Positions 1-48,560 of a stretch of DNA of 64,000 nt are shown piece after piece. Every line of letters begins with the position of its first letter. The first letter of the stretch is position 1. The notes beneath the pieces are model-generated. The model ran no database searches and had not been told where the DNA came from. It saw only the letters and a program-made list of their open reading frames with translations. The translations under genes were made by a program, and so were the position numbers. The DNA comes from Shigella phage Sf19. The DNA lies in sequence record MF327005; one strand, given 5' to 3'.

Positions 1-264
1 ATGAATAATCAAGAAATCACTATCCTGTTACAAATCGGTACTGACAAAGAAGATATCCAACTTTGCAAACGTATTGAAAGTGATTGGTTCAACGGTGAAA
101 TCATCGCAGAATCTTATGAAGTAGTCGGATTCATGAATGGTGAAATTGTAAGCCATTTCGGTTTAACTAAATCTGAAGCCGTTGCAAAGTATGACGTTTT
201 ATCTTGTGAGATTCTTACAAAATACAATGAAAAAAGACTTGCAACTTATGCAGCAATGAATTAA
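1..264 (+). CDS. hypothetical protein (may be 5'-truncated at window edge)
   Basis: 87 aa ORF from track; no recognisable motif. Confidence 0.35.
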   Translation: MNNQEITILLQIGTDKEDIQLCKRIESDWFNGEIIAESYEVVGFMNGEIVSHFGLTKSEAVAKYDVLSCEILTKYNEKRLATYAAMN

Positions 265-2225: not shown

Positions 2226-2228
2226 AAT

Positions 2229-2250
2229 AAAAAGCCCCAATTAAGGGGCT
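2229..2250 (-). terminator. rho-independent terminator for minus-strand gene 2259-2936
   Basis: agcccc-aattaa-ggggct hairpin with A-run on plus strand (T-run on minus). Confidence 0.6.
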
Positions 2251-2258
2251 GTATAGTT

Positions 2259-2936
2259 TTACATCACTTCACTAAGCATAGTTTGCAATGAAGTTTTAGA
2301 AGTCTGGAAGAAGTGTGTGAACCCATTATGACGTTCTCTTACCTGAATCATTATCTGGTCACCCTTAATCGGGTGTGAACTAATATGGTATTCATTCATG
2401 TTCAGTGCAGCACCCAAACCATCTATAATGTGTCTGAGTATGTCATATTCAACAAATTCTTCTTTACCTGTGACCTTGATACAAACACCCTTGTTAGTTC
2501 TTTTAGGGTTTATATCTTCCATAACCAGCATTTGTTGTCCACCAAGAGAAATCATAGAGAACTCTTTACGGTTCTGCTGCTTAACATACATCTCAAGTTT
2601 CTTCAAAGTATCTTCATAGAACGGATAAGACTTCTTGACAAAGATACCTTCAAGTGGCTCTTTACCTGTTAGATTTCTACGATAATTCATCCGATGAATA
2701 AGACGATACAGGTCACTTTTCTCATCTTTGGTAAAGTGTCTGTCTACATCTTTAACACTAAATGTGATATAATTACTCTCAAGTTCAAACTTTTTCATCT
2801 CTATCAAATCCTTAAAGCATTTCTTAGTAATCGCTTCCCATTCTTCGGAGTTCTTTCTCTTCCTCTTCAGATGGGGAACCATATCTGCTAAGTTCTTCCA
2901 ACTCTTCTTCAGTAGGTGTCCCATAGCTTTCTTCAT
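2259..2936 (-). CDS. hypothetical protein
   Basis: 225 aa ORF, start overlaps next gene stop. Confidence 0.55.
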   Translation of the reverse strand: MKKAMGHLLKKSWKNLADMVPHLKRKRKNSEEWEAITKKCFKDLIEMKKFELESNYITFSVKDVDRHFTKDEKSDLYRLIHRMNYRRNLTGKEPLEGIFVKKSYPFYEDTLKKLEMYVKQQNRKEFSMISLGGQQMLVMEDINPKRTNKGVCIKVTGKEEFVEYDILRHIIDGLGAALNMNEYHISSHPIKGDQIMIQVRERHNGFTHFFQTSKTSLQTMLSEVM

Positions 2937-8038: not shown

Positions 8039-8509
8039 CTATTTTGGATAAACAGCGTCAAGGTAAATCTTGGCTTCCAAACTACGTCTATTTTGTAGAC
8101 CCTTGGAAGTTACTTTTTGACCATTCACTGTAATCTTGTTCCACCACTGCATAGCTTCTGCACAACCAACTTTGTTACCAGCATTGTGACGCTTGATAAA
8201 AGTTGAATCCTGCATAGCACTGATACCAATGTTGTAAGTCTCTACAACAAGTGCATCAAATTCGTTCTGCGTAGTTGGAACCTTGATTGCTTTGTTTACT
8301 GCACCTACATAGTTTTCAACATCTGCAAGGAGATATTGAACAGCTTGTTCAGCAGTAATCTTCATCCCCATCGTAACAGGTCTTCCGTTGATACGGATTG
8401 TTCCATAACCAATTGTAGGGATTCCAGCAGAGTCTTTATAGGCTTCTAAACGAAGCCCTTCAAAGAACTTAATGGCTTCTAAGCCTTTACTTGAGAGTTG
8501 CATTATCAA
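8039..8509 (-). CDS. phage lysozyme (T4-lysozyme-like, glycoside hydrolase family 24)
   Basis: FEGLRLEAYKDSAGIPTIGYGT matches the T4 lysozyme catalytic Glu/Asp/Thr region. Confidence 0.85.
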   Translation of the reverse strand: MIMQLSSKGLEAIKFFEGLRLEAYKDSAGIPTIGYGTIRINGRPVTMGMKITAEQAVQYLLADVENYVGAVNKAIKVPTTQNEFDALVVETYNIGISAMQDSTFIKRHNAGNKVGCAEAMQWWNKITVNGQKVTSKGLQNRRSLEAKIYLDAVYPK

Positions 8510-9390
8510 CCTCCTACTGCGTTAATAACCACCTTGGCAGATTGGGATGTGATTGAGCCACCTACACCAGTTACAACACAAGAGTAAGTACCTTCATCAT
8601 CAGCTTTAGAAGTCGGTGTCTTTTCATATGTTGCAGATGTTGCTGAAGGGATATCTACATCATCTTTCTTCCACTGATAACCAGTTGCACCAGTGGCTAC
8701 GATGCTAAGGGTGAGTGTATCTCCCTCTGTAATCTCTTGGTTAGTAGGTTGCTGTGTAATCACAGGCAGTGCATTCACAGTTACTGTGGCAGCGTTGGAA
8801 TTAACACTTGAGCCACCTTCACCAGAAACTACACAGGTGTATGCGCCAGCATCAGTAGGGACTACGCCATTCTTAGTATATGTTGCAGAGGTTGCTCCAG
8901 AGATGTTTGATGCACCTTTCTTCCACTGATAACCAGTTGCACCAGTAGCAACAACTGAAAGTGTAAGTGTTCCACCCTCGTTAACAGTTTGGTCAGTTGG
9001 CTGCTGTGTAATAACTGGAGGTGTGATTGCATCCTTCAACTTTGCATTAAGCATGGAGAAAGGTTTAACCCTTGCCAACCATTCACAATAAACTGTGTCA
9101 ACATCCTTCCCATTGATGATTGCATACTGCAAGTCCATGAAGAAGTCAGCAGTCCTCATCTGAGCACCAACTGAATATAAAAGTTCTTCACTAAATGGAA
9201 CTGTGTAGTCTGGTGTGTAATTGAAGTCAGTAACTTCTGGAATATCAGACTCAGGCCACGGTGAGCTATATGTCAGAGGCAGAACGGCCTCTTGATACTT
9301 TCTGAAGTCGTATCTTTTGCCAGCTTTAACATTCGCTACAAAGTCTTTAACGAACTCTTTAAAATCTGGATATGTCTTTGCTTTAATCAT
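8506..9390 (-). CDS. protein with conserved N-terminal domain plus two tandem Ig-like domains
   Basis: Two ~80 aa repeats ITQQPT(D/N)Q...TLTLS(V/I)VATGATGYQWKK; N-terminus paralogous to 9387-9755. Confidence 0.6.
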   Translation of the reverse strand: MIKAKTYPDFKEFVKDFVANVKAGKRYDFRKYQEAVLPLTYSSPWPESDIPEVTDFNYTPDYTVPFSEELLYSVGAQMRTADFFMDLQYAIINGKDVDTVYCEWLARVKPFSMLNAKLKDAITPPVITQQPTDQTVNEGGTLTLSVVATGATGYQWKKGASNISGATSATYTKNGVVPTDAGAYTCVVSGEGGSSVNSNAATVTVNALPVITQQPTNQEITEGDTLTLSIVATGATGYQWKKDDVDIPSATSATYEKTPTSKADDEGTYSCVVTGVGGSITSQSAKVVINAVGG

Positions 9391-16478: not shown

Positions 16479-16549
16479 CTCGCTTAGTTTATATGGTAAA
16501 GCCCCATCCTTACAAGTTGGTGAAGAAGGTTCAAGTCCTTCAGCGAGTA
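16478..16549 (+). tRNA. tRNA-Val (anticodon TAC)
   Basis: acceptor gctcgct/agcgagt, loop cttacaa, T-arm gaagg-ttcaagt-ccttc, CCA encoded. Confidence 0.7.
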
Positions 16550-16553
16550 CCAA

Positions 16554-16628
16554 GTTCCAGTATCCCAATTGGCAGAGGATGCAAGCTCAAACCTTGTATT
16601 AGTGACGGTTCGAATCCGTCTTGGAACA
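16554..16628 (+). tRNA. short (type-I-like) tRNA with Leu anticodon CAA
   Basis: acceptor gttccag/ttggaac, anticodon arm gcaag-ctcaaac-cttgt, A73, 75 nt. Confidence 0.6.
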
Positions 16629-16647
16629 CCAATTTTAGGAGATTCCT

Positions 16648-16860
16648 ATGAAGCCTTATGGTAGACATGGTAAAGTTGAAATTGCAAGTTGTGGCTGCTG
16701 TGCAGCACATGATGGTGAAGAAGATTATTACAAATGGCGTACAGACCATCGTAAACGCTTTCTCAGAAGAGATAAGAAGAGAGCTAGACAGGAATCTCAA
16801 AAGGATATTGCAGAATTAGTTCAAATGGATAGAGCAGCAACCTACGAAGTTGTTAGTTAG
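16648..16860 (+). CDS. small Cys-rich ORF whose 3' third overlaps tRNA-Arg
   Basis: 70 aa; strong AGGAG RBS 6 nt upstream of ATG; overlap with tRNA makes it doubtful. Confidence 0.25.
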   Translation: MKPYGRHGKVEIASCGCCAAHDGEEDYYKWRTDHRKRFLRRDKKRARQESQKDIAELVQMDRAATYEVVS

Positions 16861-16883
16861 GGGTTCGAATCCTCTATTCTGCA
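16810..16883 (+). tRNA. tRNA-Arg (anticodon ACG)
   Basis: acceptor gcagaat/attctgc, D-stem gttc/gagc, anticodon arm gcaac-ctacgaa-gttgt, CCA encoded. Confidence 0.75.
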
Positions 16884-16904
16884 CCAAATTTAATAGGTAA
16901 CATT

Positions 16905-17132
16905 ATGTATAAACTCATAGTTGAAAAACATAAAGATGACCACAAGATTGAAACAGGTAGATTTGGAGATACTTTCTTTATAGCGGTTGGTTGGCAATGT
17001 GACCCGTTAGAAGTTAGAAAGATTGTTTATAACTTTGCTGGATTAGAACTTAAGCAAGCTATCTTCGAAACATCACTACCTGAAAATAAGGATACTTGCA
17101 ATAACGCATATATTCTTTCAAGAGTTCGTTAG
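16905..17132 (+). CDS. hypothetical small protein between tRNAs
   Basis: 75 aa ORF; stop overlaps first nt of tRNA-Gln. Confidence 0.3.
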   Translation: MYKLIVEKHKDDHKIETGRFGDTFFIAVGWQCDPLEVRKIVYNFAGLELKQAIFETSLPENKDTCNNAYILSRVR

Positions 17133-17203
17133 GGGATTAGTTTACAAGGTTAAAACCTCGGTCTTTGAAATCGAAGAAGATGGTTCAATTCCATCATCCC
17201 CCG
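17131..17203 (+). tRNA. tRNA-Gln (anticodon TTG)
   Basis: loop ctttgaa; unpaired 1:72 (A:C) and G73 as expected for Gln identity; CCA encoded. Confidence 0.7.
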
Positions 17204-17208
17204 CCAAT

Positions 17209-17284
17209 GCTCCATTACTCCAATTGGCAGAGAGGCCAGATTTAAAATCTGTGTTATGTATCGGTTCGAATCCGATATGGAGTA
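17209..17284 (+). tRNA. short (type-I-like) tRNA with Leu anticodon TAA
   Basis: acceptor gctccat/atggagt, loop tttaaaa, T-arm atcgg-ttcgaat-ccgat, A73; D-arm paralogous to 15977 and 16554 tRNAs. Confidence 0.6.
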
Positions 17285-17293
17285 CCAAATATT

Positions 17294-17366
17294 AGCAGTA
17301 TAGCATAACTGGCAATGCTCCAGCCTCTGAAGCTGAAAGATTAAGGTTCAAATCCTTATACTGCTG
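17294..17366 (+). tRNA. tRNA-Gln (anticodon CTG)
   Basis: perfect acceptor agcagta/tactgct, loop ctctgaa, T-arm ttaaggttcaaatcctta, G73, CCA. Confidence 0.7.
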
Positions 17367-17372
17367 CCACTT

Positions 17373-17397
17373 CTAAGGGTTCTTACGAGAGTCCTTA
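17373..17397 (+). ncRNA. conserved hairpin with loop TTCTTACGAG (copy 2)
   Basis: taaggGTTCTTACGAGagtcctta; stem covaries with copy at 13796. Confidence 0.45.
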
Positions 17398-17400
17398 AAT

Positions 17401-17474
17401 GTGGCCTTATCATAAATGGATAATGACCCATGCTGTGAACATGGTCTATACGGGTTCGATTCCCGTAGGTCACC
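17401..17474 (+). tRNA. tRNA-His (anticodon GTG)
   Basis: D-stem tcat/atga, anticodon arm ccatg-ctgtgaa-catgg, C73 discriminator, CCA encoded. Confidence 0.8.
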
Positions 17475-17484
17475 CCAATTTAAT

Positions 17485-17557
17485 AGCTCAATTAGCTTAT
17501 ATGGTTAAAGCGCGTGTCTGAAAAACATGAGAACAGGGTTCAAATCCCGATGGGCTA
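17485..17557 (+). tRNA. tRNA-Phe (anticodon GAA), slightly irregular acceptor/D junction
   Basis: anticodon arm cgtgt-ctgaaaa-acatg, D-stem gctt/aagc, CCA encoded; one extra nt near positions 8-9. Confidence 0.55.
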
Positions 17558-17576
17558 CCAACTTTATAGGTGCATA

Positions 17577-18311
17577 ATGAAAGAGATGACAGAACAAAGT
17601 AAAGAGATTTTTAATCTCCTTAAAACTGGTAATGGTTTCTCAAACCCTCTTATTACTGGTGCAGCAGTTCTTGGTGGTACTATAGCTGCCTCTCAATCAT
17701 TAGTTAACTCAATTAGTTCTGTAACAGACCCAGCTACACAACAGATTTTAGTTGCTGCTGGACTGACAACAGCCTTATTAGGAAGCTTCACAACAAGCCT
17801 TGGAAGTACAACTTCAACGACAAGTACACTTACTGAGTATGGACAAAAGTCTGTAGATGAGTTTTCACAACGTATGCAAGTAGCCAAAGGTTACTCTAAC
17901 GTTATGGGAGCAGCAGGTGAACAGGTTGGATGTACACCATTTAGCGGTATCATGGGCGTAGCTACCGAGTACGGTAATAAAGCGATGGATTTGATTAATA
18001 CCTCCATAGACGCTGTAAATGGCGTTCTAAGCGATTTGCAAGATGCAATCGACCAAGGACTAGATACAATCTCTGAACTCGCTACACAGGCCGTTACAGC
18101 GATTAATGAGGGTATTGCAAAGATTACTGCATATGCTAATGAAGTAACTCAGATGATTGCAGATGAAGCAGCACTGATTGCAGAATACCTGAAAACAAAT
18201 ATTAATGGTTTCCTTGCGAATGTTCTACCAAGCTGGTTTGATGATTCATGTAAAACTGGTGTGATTGATACTATCGCAACTCCAGAGATGAAAGAAGCTC
18301 TGAACAAATAA
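17577..18311 (+). CDS. hypothetical protein (Ser/Thr/Ala-rich; one N-terminal hydrophobic segment)
   Basis: 244 aa from internal ATG with AGGTG RBS; track start 17514 lies inside tRNA-Phe. Confidence 0.5.
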   Translation: MKEMTEQSKEIFNLLKTGNGFSNPLITGAAVLGGTIAASQSLVNSISSVTDPATQQILVAAGLTTALLGSFTTSLGSTTSTTSTLTEYGQKSVDEFSQRMQVAKGYSNVMGAAGEQVGCTPFSGIMGVATEYGNKAMDLINTSIDAVNGVLSDLQDAIDQGLDTISELATQAVTAINEGIAKITAYANEVTQMIADEAALIAEYLKTNINGFLANVLPSWFDDSCKTGVIDTIATPEMKEALNK

Positions 18312-18312
18312 T

Positions 18313-18402
18313 GGAAGATTAACCCTAAAAGGTAAGGGAGCAGTTTGCTAAACTGCCAGTAACCGAGAAATCGGCGTACCAGTTCAAGTCTGGTATCTTC
18401 CT
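18313..18402 (+). tRNA. tRNA-Ser (anticodon GCT), long variable arm
   Basis: perfect acceptor ggaagat/atcttcc, anticodon arm gcagt-ttgctaa-actgc, 90 nt, CCA encoded. Confidence 0.8.
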
Positions 18403-18411
18403 CCAAATTAT

Positions 18412-18484
18412 GTGTCGGTGTCAGAAATGGTTATGTGCCTGTCTGCAAAACAGGTTTATGAGGGTTCGAGTCCCTTCCGATACT
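18412..18484 (+). tRNA. tRNA-Cys (anticodon GCA)
   Basis: anticodon arm cctgt-ctgcaaa-acagg, T-arm gaggg-ttcgagt-ccctt, CCA encoded. Confidence 0.8.
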
Positions 18485-18509
18485 CCAATTTATATTAATA
18501 TCTCTCTCA

Positions 18510-18569
18510 AAGTTATTATGCCCTGCTATGAGTATTCTCCCTTTCGCTACCGGAGAGTATTTTTAGACA
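18510..18569 (+). terminator. compound rho-independent terminator closing tRNA cluster
   Basis: gccctg...cagggc outer stem with inner hairpin, then tttttt. Confidence 0.6.
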
Positions 18570-18644
18570 GGGCTTTTTTATAGAGTTATACTTTATGGGA
18601 AGACCTATACAGTATGTCTCTGGCATACATTGTGGTTTCTCCTT

Positions 18645-18668
18645 GACGGTCTCTGCACCGTCTTTTTT
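18645..18668 (+). terminator. rho-independent terminator
   Basis: gacggt-ctctgc-accgtc followed by tttttt. Confidence 0.55.
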
Positions 18669-18706
18669 CAGGAGAATCACTATAACTTTAATTTTGGAGA
18701 AATACA

Positions 18707-18913
18707 ATGAACGAGACTAATGTTTACAAAGAACTATATGAAACTCAGAAACAGGCTCAGATGCTTCAAGCAACTGTAATGGCTGTGGCTGAACGTTTAA
18801 TTGTTGCAACTGGTATTAACCCACAAGAAGCAACGATGGATAAACTTCTTAATTTAGTAGATGAAAAGTTTGGTGTAGAACCTAAACAGGAATCTGAAGA
18901 AGTTTCTGAATAA
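18707..18913 (+). CDS. hypothetical small protein upstream of terminase (possible small terminase subunit, unproven)
   Basis: 68 aa ORF with GGAG RBS; position only. Confidence 0.4.
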   Translation: MNETNVYKELYETQKQAQMLQATVMAVAERLIVATGINPQEATMDKLLNLVDEKFGVEPKQESEEVSE

Positions 18914-18919
18914 TTCTAT

Positions 18920-20536
18920 TTGCAGAGGTGCTTAATGGACTTAAATGTTATTAAGCAGAAGCGAGTGGAAGATGTAAGGAAAGTCCTAGCAGGTGAGTTG
19001 GGGCTTTCTGAAGAAGTAAAAGATATTATCAAATCCTTTGGTAAAGACCCCTCTAAATTCCTTCCAACTCAAATTCTGACTTTATTAAGATACACCCCAG
19101 ACCAAGTAAGGCTCATCTTTAAATTGATGACTGACAAGAACTATGTAGCTCCACAGCCTGGCTCTCAAGAGGTATTCTTGAACACTAATGCTGACTTGGT
19201 ACTATATGGTGGTGCTGCTGGTGCTGGTAAGACTGCTGCCCTATTAATGGACTCACTAAGGTTTATTGAAGACCCAAACTATAATGCTGTTTATTTCCGT
19301 CGAAATACAACACAGTTACAAGGTGGTCTATGGCCTGCGGCTAAGAAGTTATTTGGTAAGTTTGGTGGAGTTCCACATGAACAGAAAATGACTATCACTT
19401 TCCCTTCTGGAGCAACTATCAAGTTTACTTATTTGGAACTTGAGAAACACTCAGAAGGTCACCAAGGTATCGAATACTCAGCTATTTATTTCGACGAAGG
19501 TACACACTTCTCGGCTTCACAGATTTCATATCTTCAGACACGTTTACGTTCTGGTGCTGAAGGTGACTCATATATGAAAATCTCAATGAACCCAGATAGA
19601 GACCACTTTATTTATGATTGGGTAGAACCTTTCCTAGATGATGCTGGATATCCAGACCCAGAGAAGTGCGGCAGGATTCGTTGGTATGTTATGAATGATG
19701 GTGTCATGGTTTCTGATTGGGATAGAGACAAAATTCTTGAAATGTTCCCTCTTGAGATTCCTCAAACATATACCTTTATTTCCGGTACAATCGATGACAA
19801 CCCTATTCTAGATTTCCTTGAACCTAAGTATCGTGGTAAATTAGAAAACAACACACCAGTTAACGTTGCACGTTTACGTTTTGGTAACTGGAAAGCTCGT
19901 GCTGAAGGTTCAAACTACTGGCAAAGACAATGGTGTGAAATTGTTGATAGTGTTCCAGCAGACGTATTTGACGTGAGAGCATGGGACTTAGCAGCAACAT
20001 TACCTTCTGAGGTTAACCCTAACCCTGACTGGACAGCAGGTGTTAAAATGGGTAAATCTAAAAAAGATGGTTGCTATTATGTGATTAACGTAGTAAGATT
20101 TAGAGATAGACCTTCTGGAGTTGAAACACAAATTAACCAAACTGCTGAAGGTGATGGTAAGCGCACAGGTATTTTTATCCCTCAAGACCCCGGCGCTGCT
20201 GGTAAATCCTACGCAACCTCCCTTATTAGAAAACTTGCTGAGAAAGGTTTCCGAGCAAGAGCTAAACCAACAAATAAAGATAAAGTCACCCGTTTTGCGG
20301 GTTTCTCTGCTGCTTCTGAAGCAGGACTTGTCAAAATTGTTAGAGGCTCTTGGAATGAAGCATATTTCCAAGAACTAGAAGGTTTTTGTGGTGATGGTCG
20401 TACTAAGGATGACCAAGTGGATGCTACCAGTGATGCTTTCAACAGTCTAAACGAAGTTAAACTATTCAAGCCACCTTCAATGGGTGCTCATACAGATATT
20501 ATGAAGAGTAATCCATATCAGGGGCTAAGACGATAA
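18920..20536 (+). CDS. terL: terminase large subunit
   Basis: 538 aa; Walker A LYGGAAGAGKT; acidic nuclease-domain residues downstream; followed by portal-sized gene. Confidence 0.9.
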   Translation: MQRCLMDLNVIKQKRVEDVRKVLAGELGLSEEVKDIIKSFGKDPSKFLPTQILTLLRYTPDQVRLIFKLMTDKNYVAPQPGSQEVFLNTNADLVLYGGAAGAGKTAALLMDSLRFIEDPNYNAVYFRRNTTQLQGGLWPAAKKLFGKFGGVPHEQKMTITFPSGATIKFTYLELEKHSEGHQGIEYSAIYFDEGTHFSASQISYLQTRLRSGAEGDSYMKISMNPDRDHFIYDWVEPFLDDAGYPDPEKCGRIRWYVMNDGVMVSDWDRDKILEMFPLEIPQTYTFISGTIDDNPILDFLEPKYRGKLENNTPVNVARLRFGNWKARAEGSNYWQRQWCEIVDSVPADVFDVRAWDLAATLPSEVNPNPDWTAGVKMGKSKKDGCYYVINVVRFRDRPSGVETQINQTAEGDGKRTGIFIPQDPGAAGKSYATSLIRKLAEKGFRARAKPTNKDKVTRFAGFSAASEAGLVKIVRGSWNEAYFQELEGFCGDGRTKDDQVDATSDAFNSLNEVKLFKPPSMGAHTDIMKSNPYQGLRR

Positions 20537-20548
20537 TAGGTAGAAAGA

Positions 20549-22015
20549 ATGGCAGATATCACAGAAACACAAGAAAGCCTTCCTCCATTCAGAATGGGTG
20601 AGGTTGGGAGTCTTGGCCTTAAAGTTCGCTCAGGAAGAATCTATGAAGAACCTAGACAGGCTTTAAGATTCCCAGAAAGTATTAAGACTTTCCAACTTAT
20701 GATGAGAGACCCTTCAGTAGCAGCCTCTGTAAATATTATTAAGATGTTTGTCAGAAAGGTTAACTGGAGATTCGTACCACCGAAGGGAAAAGAGAAAGAT
20801 GCCAAGATGATTGAAAGGGCTAATTTCTTTAACTCACTAATGAATGACATGGAGCACGATTGGGCTGACTTTATTAACTCTGTAATGTCATTCTGTACTT
20901 ACGGTTTCTGTGTAAACGAGAAAGTTTATAAGAAACGTCAAGGTAAGAAAGGTAAGTACCCTTCAAAATATAATGATGGTTTAATTGGTTGGGCTAAATT
21001 ACCAATCCGTAATCAGACTACATTAGATAAATGGTACTTTGACTCTGACTATAGAAAAGTCATTGGTGTTAGACAGAACCTGCGTAATGTTTCCCATATT
21101 GCAGGAGCAATTAATCTTGGTGAACAACCATTGACAAGAAAGCTTCCTAGAAGTAAATTCTTATTGTTCAAGTATGACGATGAATATGGTAACCCAGAGG
21201 GACGTTCACCATTGCTTAATGCTTATGTTCCTTGGAAATACAAAGTTCAAATTGAAGAGTTTGAAGCAGTTGGTGTTTCCAGAGACTTGGTAGGTATGCC
21301 AAAGATTGGTCTTCCACCTGATTACTTAGGTGAAGATGCAGAACCTGAAAAGAAAGCTTTTGTTAAATACTGCCAAGAAGTAGTAAATGATTTAATTGCT
21401 AATGACAGAGCAGGTTTAATTTGGCCTAGATTTATCGACCCAGAAACTAAAGAAGATATCTTTGAGTTCTCATTAGTTTCTCGACAGGGTGCTAAAGCTT
21501 ATGATACAGGTTCTATCATTGATAGATACTCTAAGCAGATTATGATGGCGTTTATGTCTGATGTTCTTGCTATGGGACAGTCAAAATATGGCTCGTTCTC
21601 TCTGGCAGATTCTAAGACAAGCTTACTGGCAATGTCAGTTGATATTCTGCTGAAGCAAGTGAAGAATGTAATTAACCGTGATTTGGTTGCTCAGACTTAT
21701 GCACTAAATATGTGGGATGATGAAGAACACGTAGAAATTGTGTACGATGATATTGAGACACCAGACCTTGAAGCTATTGCATCATTCATTCAGAAAACAG
21801 TTGCAGTTGGTGCTCTGGAAGTTGACAAGCCATTGTCTGACAAGCTTAGAGAATATCTTGACCTTGAACCTGCTGATGAGTCTAAACCAGTATCTGAGAA
21901 ACTATCTCCAAACACTCAAAGTCGTTCTGGTGATGGTTATCAAACTGCTGGAGAAGGGACTGCTAATACTCCTTCAGCTAAAGACCCAAGTACAGCTAAT
22001 AAGGCAAACAAATAA
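20549..22015 (+). CDS. portal protein (by position and size)
   Basis: 488 aa ORF immediately after terL, before protease. Confidence 0.7.
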   Translation: MADITETQESLPPFRMGEVGSLGLKVRSGRIYEEPRQALRFPESIKTFQLMMRDPSVAASVNIIKMFVRKVNWRFVPPKGKEKDAKMIERANFFNSLMNDMEHDWADFINSVMSFCTYGFCVNEKVYKKRQGKKGKYPSKYNDGLIGWAKLPIRNQTTLDKWYFDSDYRKVIGVRQNLRNVSHIAGAINLGEQPLTRKLPRSKFLLFKYDDEYGNPEGRSPLLNAYVPWKYKVQIEEFEAVGVSRDLVGMPKIGLPPDYLGEDAEPEKKAFVKYCQEVVNDLIANDRAGLIWPRFIDPETKEDIFEFSLVSRQGAKAYDTGSIIDRYSKQIMMAFMSDVLAMGQSKYGSFSLADSKTSLLAMSVDILLKQVKNVINRDLVAQTYALNMWDDEEHVEIVYDDIETPDLEAIASFIQKTVAVGALEVDKPLSDKLREYLDLEPADESKPVSEKLSPNTQSRSGDGYQTAGEGTANTPSAKDPSTANKANK

Positions 22016-22515
22016 TGGCAGAAGTTATCTCTATTTCCAATGCTACGCGAGTGCATTCTTATAGAGGTGTCTTAATTATCACTGATGAATCAACTGTAGA
22101 GGCTGGCTCAAGGGTCAGCCTTTCAGGGTATGTTAGTGATGGTGGAACCTCTGACGTTTTCACTATTTGCAGGTTACTTGATGCTCCAATGAGCGGAAAA
22201 CAGTTTATTTCAAACAATTGTAACGAAATTGTTAAAATTCCATTTGACAGTTCATGCCTTTTGGGTGTAAAGTTATATAACTGTGAGAATAAACGTGTTA
22301 ACGTTAATAGTGTTGAAGCTGCATTCATTACCATTGATACAGCATTTCAATCTCCAATGACAGTAAATAAAGAGTCTAACAGACTTGAGTACATTTTTTC
22401 ACAAAATGATTACAAAGTACTTGTCAAAGGTAAAGTTTATGATATGATTGTAAATGTGGTAGATGAATCTGGTAACCATTCAACAATCCTTAAACAAAAA
22501 GTAAGGTTTAATTAA
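22015..22515 (+). CDS. hypothetical head-region protein
   Basis: 166 aa; last 68 bp are part of the 337 bp tandem duplication. Confidence 0.55.
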   Translation: MAEVISISNATRVHSYRGVLIITDESTVEAGSRVSLSGYVSDGGTSDVFTICRLLDAPMSGKQFISNNCNEIVKIPFDSSCLLGVKLYNCENKRVNVNSVEAAFITIDTAFQSPMTVNKESNRLEYIFSQNDYKVLVKGKVYDMIVNVVDESGNHSTILKQKVRFN

Positions 22516-22784
22516 TGGGAACATTAACGATTGATGGTAAGAATAAAATCCTAGCCACACTAACCCCGACAACTATTGTATTACACAATGTAGACCCAAC
22601 GGCAGACCCTACAGCAAACAAGGTTACTCAGCCAGTGGCTATCTTCTTCTCAGAACCTAATAATGGATTAATTGCCTCAGAAGACACAGTTAATATTACT
22701 GTTCCTGCTTCTGCTACAGTTTCTCATTTTAGCTTATGGGATGACAACTCTAAGTGCGTGGCAACAGGTGCTCTAAGTAGCCCT
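22448..22784 (+). repeat. 337 bp tandem direct repeat, unit 1
   Basis: Sequence 22448-22784 is identical base-for-base to 22785-23121 where compared. Confidence 0.9.
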
Positions 22785-22790
22785 TTGTAA
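22515..22790 (+). CDS. truncated duplicate copy of 22852-23184 (stops at repeat junction)
   Basis: 91 aa, identical to first 90 aa of downstream ORF; 337 is not a multiple of 3 so the junction shifts frame. Confidence 0.45.
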   Translation: MGTLTIDGKNKILATLTPTTIVLHNVDPTADPTANKVTQPVAIFFSEPNNGLIASEDTVNITVPASATVSHFSLWDDNSKCVATGALSSPL

Positions 22791-23121
22791 ATGTGGTAGA
22801 TGAATCTGGTAACCATTCAACAATCCTTAAACAAAAAGTAAGGTTTAATTAATGGGAACATTAACGATTGATGGTAAGAATAAAATCCTAGCCACACTAA
22901 CCCCGACAACTATTGTATTACACAATGTAGACCCAACGGCAGACCCTACAGCAAACAAGGTTACTCAGCCAGTGGCTATCTTCTTCTCAGAACCTAATAA
23001 TGGATTAATTGCCTCAGAAGACACAGTTAATATTACTGTTCCTGCTTCTGCTACAGTTTCTCATTTTAGCTTATGGGATGACAACTCTAAGTGCGTGGCA
23101 ACAGGTGCTCTAAGTAGCCCT
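22785..23121 (+). repeat. 337 bp tandem direct repeat, unit 2
   Basis: Identical to unit 1; carries its own RBS and ATG. Confidence 0.9.
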
Positions 23122-23184
23122 CAGTTCTTTGCTGAAGAAGGAATTTATGTTATCTCTTCAGTATCCATTGACTTAAATAAATAG
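22852..23184 (+). CDS. hypothetical head-region protein (full-length copy)
   Basis: 110 aa ORF. Confidence 0.55.
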   Translation: MGTLTIDGKNKILATLTPTTIVLHNVDPTADPTANKVTQPVAIFFSEPNNGLIASEDTVNITVPASATVSHFSLWDDNSKCVATGALSSPQFFAEEGIYVISSVSIDLNK

Positions 23185-23195
23185 GGTGAGTAAAA

Positions 23196-24542
23196 ATGAG
23201 TTCGAATATCTTCAGACTTGCTGACAGATTATTCAACCAACCTTTACTAGCTACAGAATCATTAGCCCACTCAGCAGCGACTTATGTTAATAACCGCTTG
23301 TTAGGTGAGGTACAAGCAGCAGTAAACTTCGATAAGCCAAAAGGTGAAGCAAGAAGTCTTTTAAAAGTTAAAGAAGACATTGCTATCATCCCTATTATGG
23401 GCGGCCTAACACATCGTATGACCTTCATGGATGCAATGTGTACTGGTGGACTAAGTTCTTATGAAGGTTTACGCAGAGGCTTTGACGAAGCCCTAGCAGA
23501 TGAGTCTATTAAGACTATCGTGCTGCACGTTGATTCAGGTGGTGGTGAAGCGTCAGGTTGTTTTGAGTTGGCACGTCACATCATGGCTTCAAGAGGCCAA
23601 AAGAAAATTATTGCTTATGTAGATGAGTTTGCTTGCTCTGCTGCATATGCTCTTGCATCTTCCGCTGAAGAAATTATTGCATCACCAGATGCAGATGTTG
23701 GTTCAATTGGTGTGATTATGGTTCACCAAGAATTAACTAAAGCATTTGAAAAGAATGGCGTAACTATTAACGTTATTAAAGCTGGTGAATTTAAAGGTAT
23801 GGGTTCCCCATTCCAAGCATTATCAGAAGAAAGCAAGAATAGACTTCAAAAGAGAATTGATGACACTTACAAGACTTTTACTAGTTTTGTTGCAGACTCA
23901 CGTAATATCTCTGAAGAAGCTGTAAAGAATACTGAGGCGAATGTTTATTCTGCTCAGGAAGCTCTTGAACTTGGTTTAATTAACTCTATCATGTCTCAAG
24001 ATGATTTCTTAAATTACTTACAAGGTTCTGAAGAAGCTCCTGTAAGTTTAAACACAAACAATTCAGGTGAAGAAATGACTGAACAAGAAAAGCAAGAACT
24101 AGAAGCTCTGCGTCTTCAGGTTGCTCAAATGAAAGCTAAGGAACAGGAAGCAGTTCTTACAGATTTAACTGGTAAGATTTCTGCATCTGCTGAAGCTTTT
24201 GGGTTTGATGCAAAAGAAGCTGCAACAGCTATTTTAGGTGCTGGTCTTGACAACCCTCTGAGTGTTCTGTTTATGAATGCTATGGAAGGTGCTAACCAGA
24301 AACTTAATGAAACTATCGCGTCCCACGCTTCTGCCATGTCTGAGAAGGATTCTGAAATCACTAAGCTGAAAGAAACTGCTGGTGCTGTTCTGGAACACTC
24401 AAACGCTATGGAAGAACTTGGCAATGACGGCGAAGCAGAAGTGGATGACGGTAAAGACACCGCTCCAGAAGCAAATGCTAATGCTAACGCTGACCAACGC
24501 AAACTGGCTCTCCAGAATGCTTTGAAAACTCTTATCAAATAA
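23196..24542 (+). CDS. prohead protease (S49/ClpP-like) with C-terminal scaffold-like Ala/Glu-rich coiled region
   Basis: 448 aa; VDSGGGEASG and FACSAAYALASSAEEI resemble S49 serine peptidase active-site region; C-terminus helical, low complexity. Confidence 0.7.
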   Translation: MSSNIFRLADRLFNQPLLATESLAHSAATYVNNRLLGEVQAAVNFDKPKGEARSLLKVKEDIAIIPIMGGLTHRMTFMDAMCTGGLSSYEGLRRGFDEALADESIKTIVLHVDSGGGEASGCFELARHIMASRGQKKIIAYVDEFACSAAYALASSAEEIIASPDADVGSIGVIMVHQELTKAFEKNGVTINVIKAGEFKGMGSPFQALSEESKNRLQKRIDDTYKTFTSFVADSRNISEEAVKNTEANVYSAQEALELGLINSIMSQDDFLNYLQGSEEAPVSLNTNNSGEEMTEQEKQELEALRLQVAQMKAKEQEAVLTDLTGKISASAEAFGFDAKEAATAILGAGLDNPLSVLFMNAMEGANQKLNETIASHASAMSEKDSEITKLKETAGAVLEHSNAMEELGNDGEAEVDDGKDTAPEANANANADQRKLALQNALKTLIK

Positions 24543-24554
24543 GGAACACAAATA

Positions 24555-24932
24555 ATGGCATATCAAGGTTTTACTAAATTAGGTAACAGAGAACCTCTGA
24601 ACGATATCATCCTTTGGGAACAGATTACACCAACTGGTCACTCTCGTAAAGAGTACGCTCCAGTAGCCAGCACTGAGTATCGTGTAGGTGAAGTTCTGAA
24701 AGCTGATGGTACTAAAGTTGCAGCAGGTGAAGAAGCTCAGGCTGATTCTGTATGTATCGTTAACTTCTACGCAGACCTGCAACTGTCTTATCATGGTCAG
24801 TTAAAAGTCGTTGGTATCTACCGTGACGCTGAACTGAAAGACTTGCTGAAGCTAGAGAGTGGCGTTGATGCTGCTGCTGTCAAGTCTGCTCTTAAGGCGA
24901 AAGGTATTGATTTCGTCCCAACTGGCCTGTAA
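24555..24932 (+). CDS. putative head decoration/accessory protein
   Basis: 125 aa between protease and major capsid gene; E. coli-type high-expression codons. Confidence 0.45.
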   Translation: MAYQGFTKLGNREPLNDIILWEQITPTGHSRKEYAPVASTEYRVGEVLKADGTKVAAGEEAQADSVCIVNFYADLQLSYHGQLKVVGIYRDAELKDLLKLESGVDAAAVKSALKAKGIDFVPTGL

Positions 24933-24963: not shown

Positions 24964-26067
24964 ATGTTGACTAATTCTGAAAAAAGCAGATTTTTCCTTG
25001 CTGACTTAACTGGTGAAGTCCAGTCTATTCCAAATACTTACGGATATATCTCTGGTCTGGGACTGTTCCGTTCTGCTCCACAAACACAGACTACTTTCCT
25101 GATGGACTTGACTGATTGGGATATCAGCTTACTGGATGCGGTAGACCGTACCAGCCGTAAAGCTGAGACTAGCGCTCCTGAGCGTGTTCGTCAGATTAGC
25201 TTCCCGATGATGTACTTCAAGGAAGTTGAAAGCATCACTCCTGATGAGATTCAGGGTGTTCGTCAGCCAGGCACTGCAAATGAACTGACTACTGAAGCAG
25301 TTGTACGTGCTAAGAAGCTGATGAAGATTCGTACCAAGTTTGATATTACTCGTGAGTTCTTGTTTATGCAAGCTCTGAAGGGTAAAGTTATCGACGCTAA
25401 CGGTGTTCTGTACGCAGACCTGTACAAGCAGTTCGATGTAACTAAGAAGACTATCTACTTCGACTTGGACAACCCGAACTCTGATATTGATGCGCACATT
25501 GAAGACCTGCGTATGCACATGGAAGATGAAGCTAAGACAGGTACTGTAATTAACGGTGAAGAAATTCACATCGTTGTTGACAGAACTTTCTTCAGCAAGC
25601 TTATCAAGCATCCTAAGATTCGTGACGCATACCTTGCACAGCAGACTCCGCTGGCTTGGCAACAGATTACTGGTTCTCTGAGAACTGGTGGTACTGACGG
25701 TGTTCAGGCTCACATGAACCGTTTCTACTATGGTGGTGTTGTATTCGTACAGTACAACGGTAAGTTCAAAGACAAGCGTGGTAAGACTCATACTCTGGTT
25801 AGCATTGACGGTGTATCTGATACTAATGTTGGTGTAGGTCACGCATTCCCTAACGTAGCAATGTTGGGTGAAGCTAACAACATCTTCGAAGTTGCTTACG
25901 CTCCATGTCCTAAGATGGGTTATGCAAACACTCTGGGTCAGGAACTGTATGTGTTCGAATATGAGAAAGACCGTGACGAAGGTATTGACTTCGAAGCCCA
26001 CTCTTACATGCTGCCATACTGCACACGTCCTCAACTGCTTGTTGACGTTCGTTCAGACGCTGAGTAA
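24964..26067 (+). CDS. major capsid protein
   Basis: 367 aa after protease/scaffold; strongly biased codon usage. Confidence 0.75.
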   Translation: MLTNSEKSRFFLADLTGEVQSIPNTYGYISGLGLFRSAPQTQTTFLMDLTDWDISLLDAVDRTSRKAETSAPERVRQISFPMMYFKEVESITPDEIQGVRQPGTANELTTEAVVRAKKLMKIRTKFDITREFLFMQALKGKVIDANGVLYADLYKQFDVTKKTIYFDLDNPNSDIDAHIEDLRMHMEDEAKTGTVINGEEIHIVVDRTFFSKLIKHPKIRDAYLAQQTPLAWQQITGSLRTGGTDGVQAHMNRFYYGGVVFVQYNGKFKDKRGKTHTLVSIDGVSDTNVGVGHAFPNVAMLGEANNIFEVAYAPCPKMGYANTLGQELYVFEYEKDRDEGIDFEAHSYMLPYCTRPQLLVDVRSDAE

Positions 26068-39786: not shown

Positions 39787-42165
39787 ATGGCTGAATATAA
39801 GCTAAGTGAGCTAAACAGTATTGATACAGTTCGCTCAGAAGATTTACTTCACCTAAGAATTATCAAAAGGTCTGATATGCTAGGTGATGAAGACCGTAAA
39901 ATGACCTATGCAAATTTCCTTGCCTCTTTCAAACTAGAAAGATTCTTACAACTAACTGGTGGGGATATGACAGGGAATCTTGGCATCGTTAAATTAAGAT
40001 ACGGTGGAAAAGACTTATTAGACCCAACAGGTTCTTCTGAGGTTATTCTCGGTGACACTGCCAAGACCTTTAGAATTAATGCAAGTGCTTTAAGATTAAC
40101 TGTAAATGATGCCACAAGGTCTGCAACAGTTTATCACACACTTAATAAACCATCTCCTAATGAATTAGGTATGAGAACTAATACTGAAAATGATGCAAGA
40201 TACGCTATGAAGGAAACTGAAAATACCTTCTTGGCAAGACAAATCATTAATATCAACGGTGTTGGTTTGACACTTAAAAGTATCTTACCAGATGGTGGAG
40301 CATATATTGAAGCAAGAGACTCAAATAATGCTTTGAGATTCACAGTTGGTAACTTGACTTCTGGGACTGATGTTACATTAGTTAACAGCAAAGGTGCTAC
40401 GTTGACTCTTGGTACAAACTCTGTTAGTGTTGACAAGAACTTTGAAATCAATGGTCAGGTTCAGCCTAATAACTGGAACAACCTTGATGCAAGATTCTTT
40501 ACACAGACTGCTGCTGACCAGAGATTTGCAAGACTTAATGCAAGTAATAACTTTGTTGGGGTTAACAACTTCAACGGGAAGACTTATGTTATTGCAGATA
40601 GTAATGCACTTAACTTAAGAGCGGCTACAGAGAATGCTGCATTATTTATGCGTGGTTACAACAGTGCTGGGACAGGTGCTTGGTATGTGGGTCAACCAGA
40701 TGGTACGCAGTCTGAGATTGTTTTAGCAAACCAGATGACAAATGTTAACTTGAAAATTGCTACAGAGTTTTCATTTAACAAAGCTATTAATGTATCTGGT
40801 CAGGTAAAACCAAGTGACTTCGCAAACTTTGATACAAGATATGTTCCAAGCTCTTTAACGAACGTGCTTGCAAGAACTAATGCTGCAAACGTTTTTACTA
40901 ACCCACAAACTATTGTTACTACAGATGCGGCTTTCACATTGCAAAGTGGGACAGCTAATTCATCACTGTATATTGTTGGCGCTAATGCAGACGGCAACAG
41001 ACGTTGGTATATTGGTAACGGTGAAGGCAGTAGGCCAAATTCTCTGTTCCTGTACAACTATTCAAGTGGTGGTGTACAGTTAGAAATTGCTGACACTTTC
41101 ATGTTCAACAGAAGCGTATCAGTAACTGGTCAGGTTCAGCCTACAGATTGGACAAACTTCGACTCAAGATACTACACACAGTCTGCTGCAAACTCTAGAT
41201 ATATGTTATCTGGTGTATCTGGAACTGGAACAGAAGTAGGTGATGCAACAGGTATTGCTTGGAATTCAAAAACAGGTTTGTACAGTGTTACAAATTCAAC
41301 TGGTGGGTCTACTCACTTAGTTTACCAAATGCACCTTGGAGTTGGTACATCTACACCGACTGCACAGTTTAAATTTAACTACAAGAATACTGGAATCTAT
41401 TATAGAACAGCAAGGGATGGATTTGGTTTTGAAGAGGTTTGGGCTAAAATCTACACAGACCAAGACAAACCTACACCTTCTGAACTTGGTGCTTACACCA
41501 AGGCTGAAGTAGACCAACGTATTGCTTCTGCTGTAACTGATTCTACAGACCTCAAGAAAGTGTATCCAGTTGGTATTGTGACGTTCTTTGCTTCTAATGT
41601 CAACCCAAATACAGCTTTCCCAGGCACTACTTGGACTTACTTGACAGAGGGTGCAAACAGAACTATTAGAATTGGTTCTGCAAATGGTTCCGATGTGAAA
41701 GGTCTTGGTGGTTCTGATACGGTGGCTCTAAGTGTTGGTCATATTCCTGCGCACACTCATAGCTTCTCTGGAACAACAAGTACATTTGATTATGGTACTA
41801 AGTACACAGACGCTCAAGGTGCTCACGACCATGACAGAGGTAACATGGAAATCTCTGGTGACTTTGGTTTCTTCAGAAGTGATGCAAACAGCTTCTATAC
41901 AGCAAGTGGGGCATTCGCTATCTCAGGTTCACAAGCCTCTAGGGGTTATACTGGTTCACAATTCACTTATGGTACACCTGTCAACTTCTACGCATCAAGA
42001 ACTTGGACAGGGAGAACAAGTTGGGTAGGTGCTCACGGTCACGGTGTAGGTATTGGTGCTCACAACCACACATTTAGTGGTAACACTGGTGCAACTGGTT
42101 CTGGTGCAGCATTCAGTGTTCTGAACACTTACATTAAATTAATGGCTTGGGTAAGAACTGCATAA
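39787..42165 (+). CDS. long tail fibre protein with repeated shaft modules and His-rich tip
   Basis: 792 aa; internal repeats (NxSGQVQP.DWxNFDxRY); C-terminal HxH cluster; ends WVRTA. Confidence 0.7.
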   Translation: MAEYKLSELNSIDTVRSEDLLHLRIIKRSDMLGDEDRKMTYANFLASFKLERFLQLTGGDMTGNLGIVKLRYGGKDLLDPTGSSEVILGDTAKTFRINASALRLTVNDATRSATVYHTLNKPSPNELGMRTNTENDARYAMKETENTFLARQIININGVGLTLKSILPDGGAYIEARDSNNALRFTVGNLTSGTDVTLVNSKGATLTLGTNSVSVDKNFEINGQVQPNNWNNLDARFFTQTAADQRFARLNASNNFVGVNNFNGKTYVIADSNALNLRAATENAALFMRGYNSAGTGAWYVGQPDGTQSEIVLANQMTNVNLKIATEFSFNKAINVSGQVKPSDFANFDTRYVPSSLTNVLARTNAANVFTNPQTIVTTDAAFTLQSGTANSSLYIVGANADGNRRWYIGNGEGSRPNSLFLYNYSSGGVQLEIADTFMFNRSVSVTGQVQPTDWTNFDSRYYTQSAANSRYMLSGVSGTGTEVGDATGIAWNSKTGLYSVTNSTGGSTHLVYQMHLGVGTSTPTAQFKFNYKNTGIYYRTARDGFGFEEVWAKIYTDQDKPTPSELGAYTKAEVDQRIASAVTDSTDLKKVYPVGIVTFFASNVNPNTAFPGTTWTYLTEGANRTIRIGSANGSDVKGLGGSDTVALSVGHIPAHTHSFSGTTSTFDYGTKYTDAQGAHDHDRGNMEISGDFGFFRSDANSFYTASGAFAISGSQASRGYTGSQFTYGTPVNFYASRTWTGRTSWVGAHGHGVGIGAHNHTFSGNTGATGSGAAFSVLNTYIKLMAWVRTA

Positions 42166-48285: not shown

Positions 48286-48560
48286 TTTAACGTGGCTACT
48301 ACCATCCACCCTTACCTCACTTTACCTAACCTGACCTTACCAGACCCAACCGGACACTACCCTACCTAGCGAAACCTCATTAAAAGACCCTCTTTAAAGA
48401 CCTTTTAAAAAGGTGAGTCTCATTTTAATGTAGCTGAGACTAACTACCCTCACCAAACCGGACCAGACCCAACCCAGCCATACCAGACCATACCACACCC
48501 AACCGAACCGAACCTTACCGAGCATCACTTAAAACCCTTTTCAAAGACTCTTAAGTGATG
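48286..48560. repeat. mosaic repeat element copy 2
   Basis: Same modules as copy 1, shuffled; lies in 5' leader of minus-strand transcript. Confidence 0.7.

What the first reader, a model, noticed from the sequence alone, without database searches (positions are those of the whole stretch)
22448..23121. Perfect 337 bp tandem duplication in the head-morphogenesis region
22448-22784 and 22785-23121 are identical where compared. The unit holds the 3' end of gene 22015-22515 plus the RBS and first 270 nt of the next gene. Because 337 is not divisible by 3, copy 1 of the ORF ends at the junction (91 aa) and copy 2 is full length (110 aa). Perfect identity means a very recent duplication, a selected dosage increase, or an assembly artefact.
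Basis: seen in the sequence. Interest (0 to 1): 0.7.

Follow-up and report, generated by a model that had tools for sequence, protein, structure and literature searches.

The report
Untrimmed assembly overlap, not a gene duplication
The perfect 337-bp tandem repeat is really in the deposited genome of Shigella phage Sf19, but it is most likely a finishing error (two overlapping contig ends pasted together without trimming) rather than a biological duplication.

Summary
Window 22448-22784 and 22785-23121 are two 100% identical 337-bp copies with a blunt junction, and this is the only long perfect repeat in the window.

The window is the first 64 kb of Shigella phage Sf19 (Mooglevirus, 90,375 bp). 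The unit covers the last 68 nt of the gp30-type neck-whisker gene and the first 270 nt of the gp31-type whisker gene. The result is a 91-aa truncated copy (annotated as Sf19_gp33, AUV56250.1) ahead of the intact 110-aa gene.

Nothing else carries it:
- All 261 related phage records have one copy.
- The junction is absent from the viral and metagenome collections.
- The 91-aa product occurs only in Sf19 among about 15 billion proteins.

Sister genomes from the same laboratory carry the same kind of perfect redundancy at different genome positions:
- Sf13 and Sf15: the first 248 bp equal the last 248 bp.
- Sf17: the same over 427 bp, with gp1 annotated twice.
- Sf16: 210 bp repeated.
- Sf14: a perfect 416-bp tandem repeat across the record origin.

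Sf19's record starts exactly at the ATG of gp1, so it was edited by hand.

Best reading (about 0.85): an untrimmed contig-end overlap that became internal when ends were joined or the record was rotated. A real recent duplication is not excluded (about 0.12). Interest is low, beyond flagging record errors.

The parts
22448..22784 (+). Copy 1 of the 337-bp unit: last 68 nt of the gp30-type whisker gene, then the first 270 nt of the gp31-type whisker gene
   Evidence: TRF, the repeat finder, exact string identity to copy 2. Corresponds to Sf17 21853-22189 with 2 mismatches.
22785..23121 (+). Copy 2 of the 337-bp unit, continuing into native downstream sequence
   Evidence: The window-Sf17 alignment restarts at Sf17 21853 at window 22785.
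22784..22785 (.). Novel junction ...AGTAGCCCT|TTGTAAATG..., blunt with no microhomology; proposed place where two overlapping contig ends were abutted
   Evidence: The junction 100-mer splits into two pieces 337 bp apart in each of the 15 records listed, and no listed record holds it contiguously. The 36-mer is absent from viral contigs and metagenome contigs.
22015..22515 (+). Intact 166-aa neck whisker/collar protein gene (Sf19_gp32, homologue of Sf14 gp30 = FDI99_gp127)
   Evidence: ORF; AUV56249.1; PDB 9c39_I 'gp127' E=3.7e-105; named whisker in PMC11821841.
22515..22790 (+). 91-aa truncated copy of the gp31-type whisker protein (90 native residues plus Leu), annotated as Sf19_gp33 / AUV56250.1; probably a spurious gene
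   Evidence: ORF. The exact product is found only in the Sf19 record among about 15 billion proteins, and the other listed members of its 207-member cluster are all 110 aa.
22785..22852 (+). Orphan 68-nt copy of the 3' end of the 166-aa gene, with no upstream reading frame
   Evidence: Sequence; the translation shows stops.
22852..23184 (+). Intact 110-aa whisker protein gene (Sf19_gp34, homologue of Sf14 gp31 = FDI99_gp126)
   Evidence: ORF; 110/110 identical to PDB 9c39_K; phrog_240 'head protein'; AUV56251.1.
1..264 (+). gp1 ORF beginning exactly at window base 1 (= Sf17 base 113), which shows the record origin was set by hand
   Evidence: Alignment to Sf17, translation, Sf17 annotation.

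Best explanation
The 337-bp tandem repeat is a genome-finishing artefact in the GenBank record of Shigella phage Sf19. The short-read assembly of this phage, which assembles as a circle, produced contig ends that overlapped by 337 bp inside the whisker genes. When the sequence was re-originated to start at the ATG of gp1, or when two contigs were joined, the ends were abutted without removing the overlap. That placed the two copies side by side. The annotation pipeline then called the truncated first copy as a gene (Sf19_gp33). The true genome would have one copy and be about 90,038 bp. What is shown: the repeat is exact, blunt and private to this record; the origin was hand-set; and sister records carry untrimmed overlaps. 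What is inferred: that the original Sf19 contig ends lay at 22448 and 23121.
For: (1) The two copies are exactly identical, there are exactly 2.0 copies, and the junction has no microhomology. That is what abutted overlapping ends look like.
(2) The repeat is private to Sf19. All 40 listed rows of the 261 related records span 337 bp less than the part of the query they cover (2664 bp for the full 3001-bp query). The junction splits into two pieces in each of the 15 records listed. The junction 36-mer is absent from IMG/VR and JGI metagenomes. The 91-aa product is found only as AUV56250.1 of Sf19.
(3) The source is Sf19. Window base 1 is the A of the gp1 ATG, equal to Sf17 base 113, and gene numbering agrees (the 471-aa protein is gp23 in both). 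So the record origin was deliberately edited.
(4) Sister records from the same laboratory and submission series hold the same kind of perfect redundancy at non-homologous places. Sf17 has its first 427 bp equal to its last 427 bp, with gp1 annotated a second time under the placeholder locus tag 'Sf17_xxxxx'. Sf13 and Sf15 each have an exact 248-bp start-equals-end overlap, in the tape-measure-chaperone region and in the early region respectively. In Sf16, bases 1-210 equal 88186-88395, followed by 185 bp of divergent tail. Sf14 has a perfect 416-bp tandem repeat that runs across the record origin, with gp131 annotated as 'potential duplication of gp130 sequence'. Only Sf18 is clean. These cannot all be biological termini, because Sf15, Sf17, Sf18 and Sf19 are classed in one species (Mooglevirus Sf17; Sf13, Sf14 and Sf16 belong to two other species) and the positions differ.
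(5) No biological gain is apparent: no whole gene is duplicated.
(6) Inference: a perfect 337-bp tandem repeat longer than the reads would normally be collapsed by a short-read assembler, not resolved into two copies. The two 248-bp overlaps suggest reads of about 250 nt.
Against: No reads for Sf19 were available, so neither coverage nor junction-spanning reads could be examined. The methods paper (Doore et al. 2018, J Virol) is not held in the library, so the assembler and read length are unverified. The unit straddles a gene boundary, so both native genes stay intact, as a viable real duplication would require. This is weak evidence, because about 56% of random 337-bp placements in this genome would also be non-disruptive. 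Four of the six sister contigs end in the early-gene repeat region near gp1, so Sf19's contig may also have ended there and simply been trimmed to the ATG. In that case the artefact would have to come from joining two contigs rather than from rotation.
Confidence: 0.85

Rival explanations
1. A genuine, very recent tandem duplication in the sequenced Sf19 stock. It would have arisen by illegitimate (homology-independent) recombination or replication slippage. It would be tolerated because it spans the gp30/gp31 gene boundary, leaving both whisker genes intact and adding a 91-aa truncated gp31 paralogue.
For: Both native genes remain intact. The two substitutions relative to Sf17 within the unit are present in both copies. 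The depositors annotated the extra ORF without comment. Tandem duplications are known in lytic phage stocks (general knowledge; not tested here).
Against: It is private to one record among 261 relatives and all collections searched. Divergence is zero and microhomology is zero. No complete gene is gained, and a truncated virion protein with the native RBS could interfere with whisker assembly (inference from PMC11821841). A 337-bp perfect direct repeat should be lost quickly by homologous recombination unless selected (general knowledge). Five of six sister records show the same signature as obvious end redundancy.
Confidence: 0.12
2. The two copies are the phage's real direct terminal repeats. 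They would have been included at both ends of a linear contig and then brought together when the record was rotated, so the unit boundaries would mark the physical genome ends.
For: Felixounaviruses are reported by PhageTerm to package with short direct terminal repeats: 581 bp in Pr103Blw (PMC8303462) and 613 bp in Ro111lw (PMC6454146). Blunt repeat boundaries would fit terminase cuts.
Against: The boundaries fall inside two structural coding sequences between the portal and protease genes. Same-species records carry their end redundancy elsewhere (Sf17 at gp1, Sf15 in the early region) or have none (Sf18), so the position is not conserved. The size differs from the reported 581-613 bp.
Confidence: 0.02
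3. The repeat was introduced after deposition, for example when the 64-kb window was prepared, and is not in the public record.
For: Sf19 itself did not appear among hits in the phage collection searched, so the record's DNA could not be compared directly.
Against: The 91-aa ORF created by the junction is a deposited GenBank protein (AUV56250.1, Sf19_gp33). It sits between AUV56249.1 (166 aa) and AUV56251.1 (110 aa).
Confidence: 0.01

Closest known systems
Untrimmed terminal overlap of circular or circularly-assembling phage contigs (for example the repeated end k-mers that SPAdes leaves; noted in PMC13108922)
   Same: Two perfect copies with blunt ends at an arbitrary genome position, absent from relatives. 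The same laboratory's records show it at their termini (Sf13 and Sf15 248 bp, Sf17 427 bp).
   Different: Here the two copies are adjacent and internal rather than at the two ends of the record, which requires a rotation or contig-join step. At 337 bp the overlap is not a standard k-mer length.
Sf14 gp130/gp131 'potential duplication' (MF327003.1 / NC_042075.1)
   Same: A perfect tandem repeat of a few hundred bp (416 bp, 2.0 copies) in a sister Mooglevirus record from the same submitters. It is private to that record as far as checked (Sf17 has one copy) and produces an extra annotated CDS.
   Different: It lies in the early-gene region, straddles the record origin, and duplicates a whole small ORF rather than truncating one.
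Genuine tandem duplications in lytic phage stocks (classical T4 and lambda duplications; general knowledge, not tested here)
   Same: Head-to-tail repeat, identical copies when recent, tolerated when genes stay intact.
   Different: Real cases are supported by junction reads or restriction fragments and usually by selection. None of that is available here, and the circumstantial evidence points the other way.
Sf14 neck whisker proteins gp30 and gp31 (PDB 9c39; PMC11821841)
   Same: The 110-aa protein is 100% identical to 9c39 chain K, and the 166-aa protein matches 9c39 chain I at E=3.7e-105. Gene order portal-gp30-gp31-protease is the same.
   Different: Sf19's record has the additional 91-aa fragment between them.

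Membership tests
Assembly/finishing artefact (untrimmed contig-end overlap) | Copies are exactly identical and there are exactly two of them | tested here: met
   337/337 identical, 2.0 copies.
Assembly/finishing artefact (untrimmed contig-end overlap) | Absent from all independent assemblies of close relatives | tested here: met
   All 40 listed rows of the 261 related records are single-copy. The junction is not contiguous in any of the 15 listed records. No junction in viral or metagenome contigs. The 91-aa product is unique to Sf19.
Assembly/finishing artefact (untrimmed contig-end overlap) | Evidence that the record was cut and re-joined or re-originated by hand | tested here: met
   The record begins on the first base of the gp1 start codon.
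Assembly/finishing artefact (untrimmed contig-end overlap) | The same pipeline demonstrably leaves overlaps untrimmed | tested here: met
   Sf13 248 bp, Sf15 248 bp, Sf17 427 bp, Sf16 210 bp, Sf14 416-bp tandem.
Assembly/finishing artefact (untrimmed contig-end overlap) | No reads span the junction, and read depth over the unit is 1x on a single-copy reference | not testable with these tools
   No Sf19 reads or independent assembly were found. The Sf19-specific proteins looked up were each recorded on a single 90,375-bp contig, held by NCBI-derived sources only. The look-up of encoding contigs returned nothing.
Genuine tandem duplication | Junction supported by reads, PCR, or an independent isolate | tested here: not met
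   No independent occurrence in any collection searched. Reads and PCR are not testable here.
Genuine tandem duplication | Compatible with phage viability (no essential gene disrupted) | tested here: met
   Both flanking genes are intact. About 56% of random placements would also pass this test.
Direct terminal repeat of the virion DNA | Position conserved among same-species genomes and located at the physical ends | tested here: not met
   End redundancy in Sf15, Sf17 (both same species as Sf19) and Sf13 maps to other, mutually different positions. Physical ends are not testable here.
Mooglevirus neck whisker proteins (Sf14 gp30/gp31) | Sequence identity to the chains modelled in the Sf14 neck structure, and the same gene order | tested here: met
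   9c39_K 110/110 identical; 9c39_I E=3.7e-105. Order portal-gp30-gp31-protease.

The most novel reading that the evidence does not exclude
The duplication is real. The sequenced Sf19 stock would carry a just-arisen 337-bp tandem duplication that adds a co-expressed, C-terminally truncated gp31 whisker subunit. That would be a natural dominant-negative or altered-stoichiometry variant of the neck whiskers in a T=9 myophage, and a caught-in-the-act example of homology-independent duplication in an Ounavirinae genome.
Probability: 0.12. Interest if true: 0.3.

Novelty: not a real feature. Interest (0 to 1): 0.08.

Why it matters
There is little biological significance. The practical value is curation. 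Sf19_gp33 (AUV56250.1 / UniRef A0A2K9V2J3) is probably a spurious protein, and the Sf19 genome is probably 337 bp too long. Several sister records, three of them also RefSeq entries (NC_042017 Sf13, NC_042075 Sf14, NC_042076 Sf17), carry comparable untrimmed redundancy and duplicate CDSs. That inflates genome length, gene counts and 'DTR/complete' calls in tools such as CheckV. If the repeat were real, it would be a modest curiosity about whisker-protein stoichiometry.

Tried and rejected
- Junction searches returned no hits: exact 36-mer in viral contigs and in metagenome contigs.
- The look-up of encoding contigs for the 91-aa and 166-aa products found nothing on record. I therefore could not retrieve the Sf19 record's own coordinates or its 3' end.
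- I tried to read the original genome paper (Doore et al. 2018) by DOI and by PMC id. It is not held, so the assembler and read length remain unverified. The Sf14 tRNA paper mentions no duplication or resequencing.
- I considered that the Sf17 427-bp end repeat, or the Sf19 repeat, might be the true DTR. The Mordin 'repeat_region' features near the homologous site turned out to be 14-bp elements upstream of early genes, not terminal repeats. The 'DTR' reported for Mooglevirus KMM2 is only a 64-bp contig-end overlap mapping to window ~1579-1642, which says nothing about physical ends. The DTR location in this genus remains unknown.
- I rejected 'selected dosage increase' because no full gene is duplicated.
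- I gave little weight to the non-disruptive placement, because about 56% of random placements are also non-disruptive.

Full report
**1.
Tandem Repeats Finder reports one array at 22448-23121: period 337, 2.0 copies, 100% matches, no indels, score 1348. The repeat finder agrees. A direct string comparison shows that 22448-22784 and 22785-23121 are identical at all 337 positions.

The array cannot be extended on either side. The base before copy 1 is A, while the last base of the unit is T. The base after copy 2 is C, while the first base of the unit is T. The junction ...AGTAGCCCT|TTGTAAATG... is therefore blunt, with no microhomology. No other long perfect repeat exists in the 64 kb.

**2. 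Source and genes.**
Exact protein look-ups identify the window as Shigella phage Sf19 (Mooglevirus, Ounavirinae; 90,375-bp record; proteins AUV56240-AUV56298). Sf19 itself did not appear among hits in the phage collection searched. The closest records are Sf17, KPS64, 3HA14, Sf13, Sf15, Sf16 and Sf18, at 99.2-99.7% identity across this region.

The local gene order is:

| Window coordinates | Gene |
|---|---|
| 18920-20536 | large terminase |
| 20549-22015 | portal |
| 22015-22515 | 166-aa protein |
| 22852-23184 | 110-aa protein |
| 23196-24542 | S49 prohead protease |
| 24555-24932 | decoration protein |
| 24964-26067 | major capsid protein |

The cryo-EM study of the sister phage Sf14 names the 166-aa and 110-aa homologues gp30 and gp31. 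Together they build two sets of neck whiskers, and both were detected in virions by mass spectrometry (PMC11821841). The 110-aa protein is 110/110 identical to PDB 9c39 chain K, and the 166-aa protein matches 9c39 chain I ('gp127') at E=3.7e-105.

**3. Anatomy of the repeat.**
The unit holds the last 68 nt of the gp30-type gene and the first 270 nt of the gp31-type gene; the two genes overlap in TAATG. This has four consequences:
- The 166-aa gene is intact, reading into copy 1.
- A 91-aa ORF (22515-22790) consists of the first 90 residues of gp31 plus Leu, then a stop 6 nt past the junction.
- A 68-nt orphan fragment of the gp30 3' end follows (22785-22852).
- The intact 110-aa gene starts in copy 2.

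The 91-aa ORF is a deposited protein, Sf19_gp33 / AUV56250.1, so the repeat is in the public record and was not introduced when the window was made.

**4. The repeat is private to this record.**
- Of 261 related phage records matching window 21500-24500, all 40 listed rows span 337 bp less than the part of the query they cover (2664 bp for the full 3001-bp query), matched as two pieces.
- A 100-nt probe across the junction splits into two pieces 337 bp apart in each of the 15 records listed, and none of them holds it contiguously.
- The junction 36-mer is absent from IMG/VR and from the JGI metagenome contigs.
- Among about 15 billion proteins, the 91-aa product occurs on a single contig, Sf19. 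The other listed members of its 207-member cluster are all 110 aa.
- Sf17, classed in the same species, aligns without gaps on both sides. Window 15622-22784 matches Sf17 15027-22189, and window 22785 onward restarts at Sf17 21853. There are only 2 mismatches inside the unit, and both copies share them.

**5. The decisive circumstantial evidence comes from the sister records.**
Window base 1 is the A of the ATG of gp1, equal to Sf17 base 113. Gene numbering agrees as well: the 471-aa protein is gp23 in both phages. The window is therefore the start of the record, and the record origin was set by hand.

I then examined the ends of the other Mooglevirus records from the same submitters:

| Record | Redundancy found |
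|---|---|
| Sf17 (MF327004.1) | First 427 bp equal the last 427 bp. gp1 is annotated a second time at the end, under the placeholder locus tag 'Sf17_xxxxx'. |
| Sf13 | Exact 248-bp start-equals-end overlap, in the tape-measure-chaperone region. |
| Sf15 | Exact 248-bp start-equals-end overlap, in the early-gene region. |
| Sf16 | Bases 1-210 repeated at 88186-88395, followed by 185 bp of unrelated tail and a truncated duplicate CDS. |
| Sf14 | Perfect 416-bp tandem repeat, 86773-87188 and 87189-87575 continuing into bases 1-29. The depositors flagged gp131 as 'potential duplication of gp130 sequence'. |
| Sf18 | None. |

So five of six sister genomes carry perfect redundancy of 210-427 bp at mutually non-homologous positions. 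Four of the seven phages (Sf15, Sf17, Sf18, Sf19) are classed in one species. These repeats cannot all be biological termini. They are the ordinary signature of contig ends that overlap because the genome assembles as a circle and were never trimmed. The value 248 bp occurring twice suggests an overlap limited by reads of about 250 nt (inference).

**6. Best explanation (confidence about 0.85).**
Sf19's assembly had ends, or two contigs, overlapping by 337 bp within the whisker genes. When the sequence was re-originated to the gp1 ATG or the contigs were joined, the ends were abutted without removing the overlap. That created an internal perfect tandem repeat and a spurious 91-aa CDS.

This accounts for the exact identity, the exactly two copies, the blunt junction, the privacy of the repeat, the hand-set origin, and the family resemblance to the sister records. 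It also avoids a difficulty for the alternative: a short-read assembler would normally collapse a perfect tandem repeat longer than its reads rather than resolve it into two copies (inference).

One caveat applies. Four sister contigs end in the early region near gp1. Sf19's contig may therefore have ended there too and simply been trimmed to the ATG. In that case the artefact would come from a contig join rather than a rotation. The outcome would be the same.

**7. Rival explanations.**
- *A real, very recent duplication (about 0.12).* It is compatible with viability, because the unit spans a gene boundary. That is weak evidence: with an approximate gene map of the window, about 56% of random 337-bp placements would be equally harmless. 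It gives no full-gene dosage gain. It would co-express a truncated virion protein. It should also be unstable to homologous recombination (general knowledge).
- *Real direct terminal repeats juxtaposed by rotation (about 0.02).* Felixounaviruses are reported to have 581-bp and 613-bp DTRs (PMC8303462; PMC6454146). However, the boundaries here cut two structural genes, and same-species records place their redundancy elsewhere.
- *Introduced when the window was prepared (about 0.01).* Excluded by AUV56250.1.

**8. What could not be done.**
- No Sf19 reads or independent assemblies exist in the searchable collections.
- The original methods paper is not held.
- The physical termini of Moogleviruses remain undetermined. 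The KMM2 'DTR' is only a 64-bp contig overlap, and the Mordin 'repeat_region' features are 14-bp elements upstream of early genes.

**9. Verdict.**
The sequence observation is confirmed. It is not a new biological feature, and interest is low. The useful by-product is a list of likely errors in the public records of Sf13, Sf14, Sf15, Sf16, Sf17 and Sf19.

Noticed in passing
L001:1-427 and L002:41666-42092 (MF327004.1 / NC_042076.1, Sf17 1-427 = 89666-90092): The Sf17 record has an exact 427-bp start-equals-end redundancy. gp1 is annotated a second time at the end with the placeholder locus tag 'Sf17_xxxxx'. It is either an untrimmed overlap or an unannotated DTR.
   Followed up: partly
L008/L009 (Sf13, MF158040.1) and L010/L011 (Sf15, MF158041.1): In both records the first 248 bp are identical to the last 248 bp, at different genome positions. 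This points to read-length-limited contig overlaps that were left untrimmed.
   Followed up: partly
L012:1-29 and L013:698-1500 (Sf14, MF327003.1 86773-87575 plus 1-29): A perfect 416-bp tandem repeat straddles the record origin and duplicates a 342-nt ORF. The depositors annotated gp131 as 'potential duplication of gp130 sequence'. Sf17 has only one copy of that gene.
   Followed up: partly
L006:1-210 and L007:1106-1315 (Sf16, MF158043.1): The first 210 bp of the record recur at 88186-88395, followed by 185 bp of unrelated sequence and a truncated duplicate CDS (gp134). This looks like a poor-quality contig end.
   Followed up: no
L005 (Sf18, MF158044.1 88385-90270): The baseplate J-like gene is a single 1470-nt CDS in Sf17 (gp49). 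In Sf18 it is annotated as two overlapping CDSs (gp135/gp136), the second ending exactly at the record end. This may be a frameshift error or a real frameshift.
   Followed up: no
window 950-2259 (tandem repeats at 1024-1061, 1115-1183, 1484-1552, 1546-1598, 2076-2104): An ORF-poor stretch of about 1.3 kb between divergent gene blocks is packed with short tandem repeats (periods of 10-31 bp). The contig ends of the Nanopore-assembled Mooglevirus KMM2 map to window ~1579-1642. It is a candidate regulatory, origin or terminus region.
   Followed up: partly
window 13036-18487: An array of 25 tRNA genes lies on the + strand upstream of the terminase gene, interspersed with small ORFs. This is typical of Ounavirinae.
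   Followed up: no
window 8619-8771 and 8871-9023 (inside ORF 8506-9390, minus strand): A 153-nt internal repeat at 75% identity with 252-nt spacing lies in the 294-aa protein that carries an Ig-like domain (Sf17 gp18 homologue). It probably reflects tandem Ig-like domains, and the protein may be the Hoc-like decoration protein described for Sf14.
   Followed up: no
window 40452-40525 and 41127-41200 (tail fibre gene 39787-42165): A 74-nt segment is repeated at 74% identity, 675 nt apart, inside the 792-aa tail fibre gene. This suggests an internal domain repeat.
   Followed up: no
window 48453-48509: A 25-bp tandem repeat (CCAAACCAGACCAGACCAAACCCAG, 2.3 copies) of unknown significance.
   Followed up: no
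L002:35700-40500 (Sf17 83.7-88.5 kb): A family of intergenic elements of about 90-110 bp (83-95% identical) recurs before many small early genes. Mordin annotates 14-bp 'repeat_region' features at the equivalent sites. These are likely early promoter or regulatory elements, and a likely cause of assembly breaks in this region.
   Followed up: no
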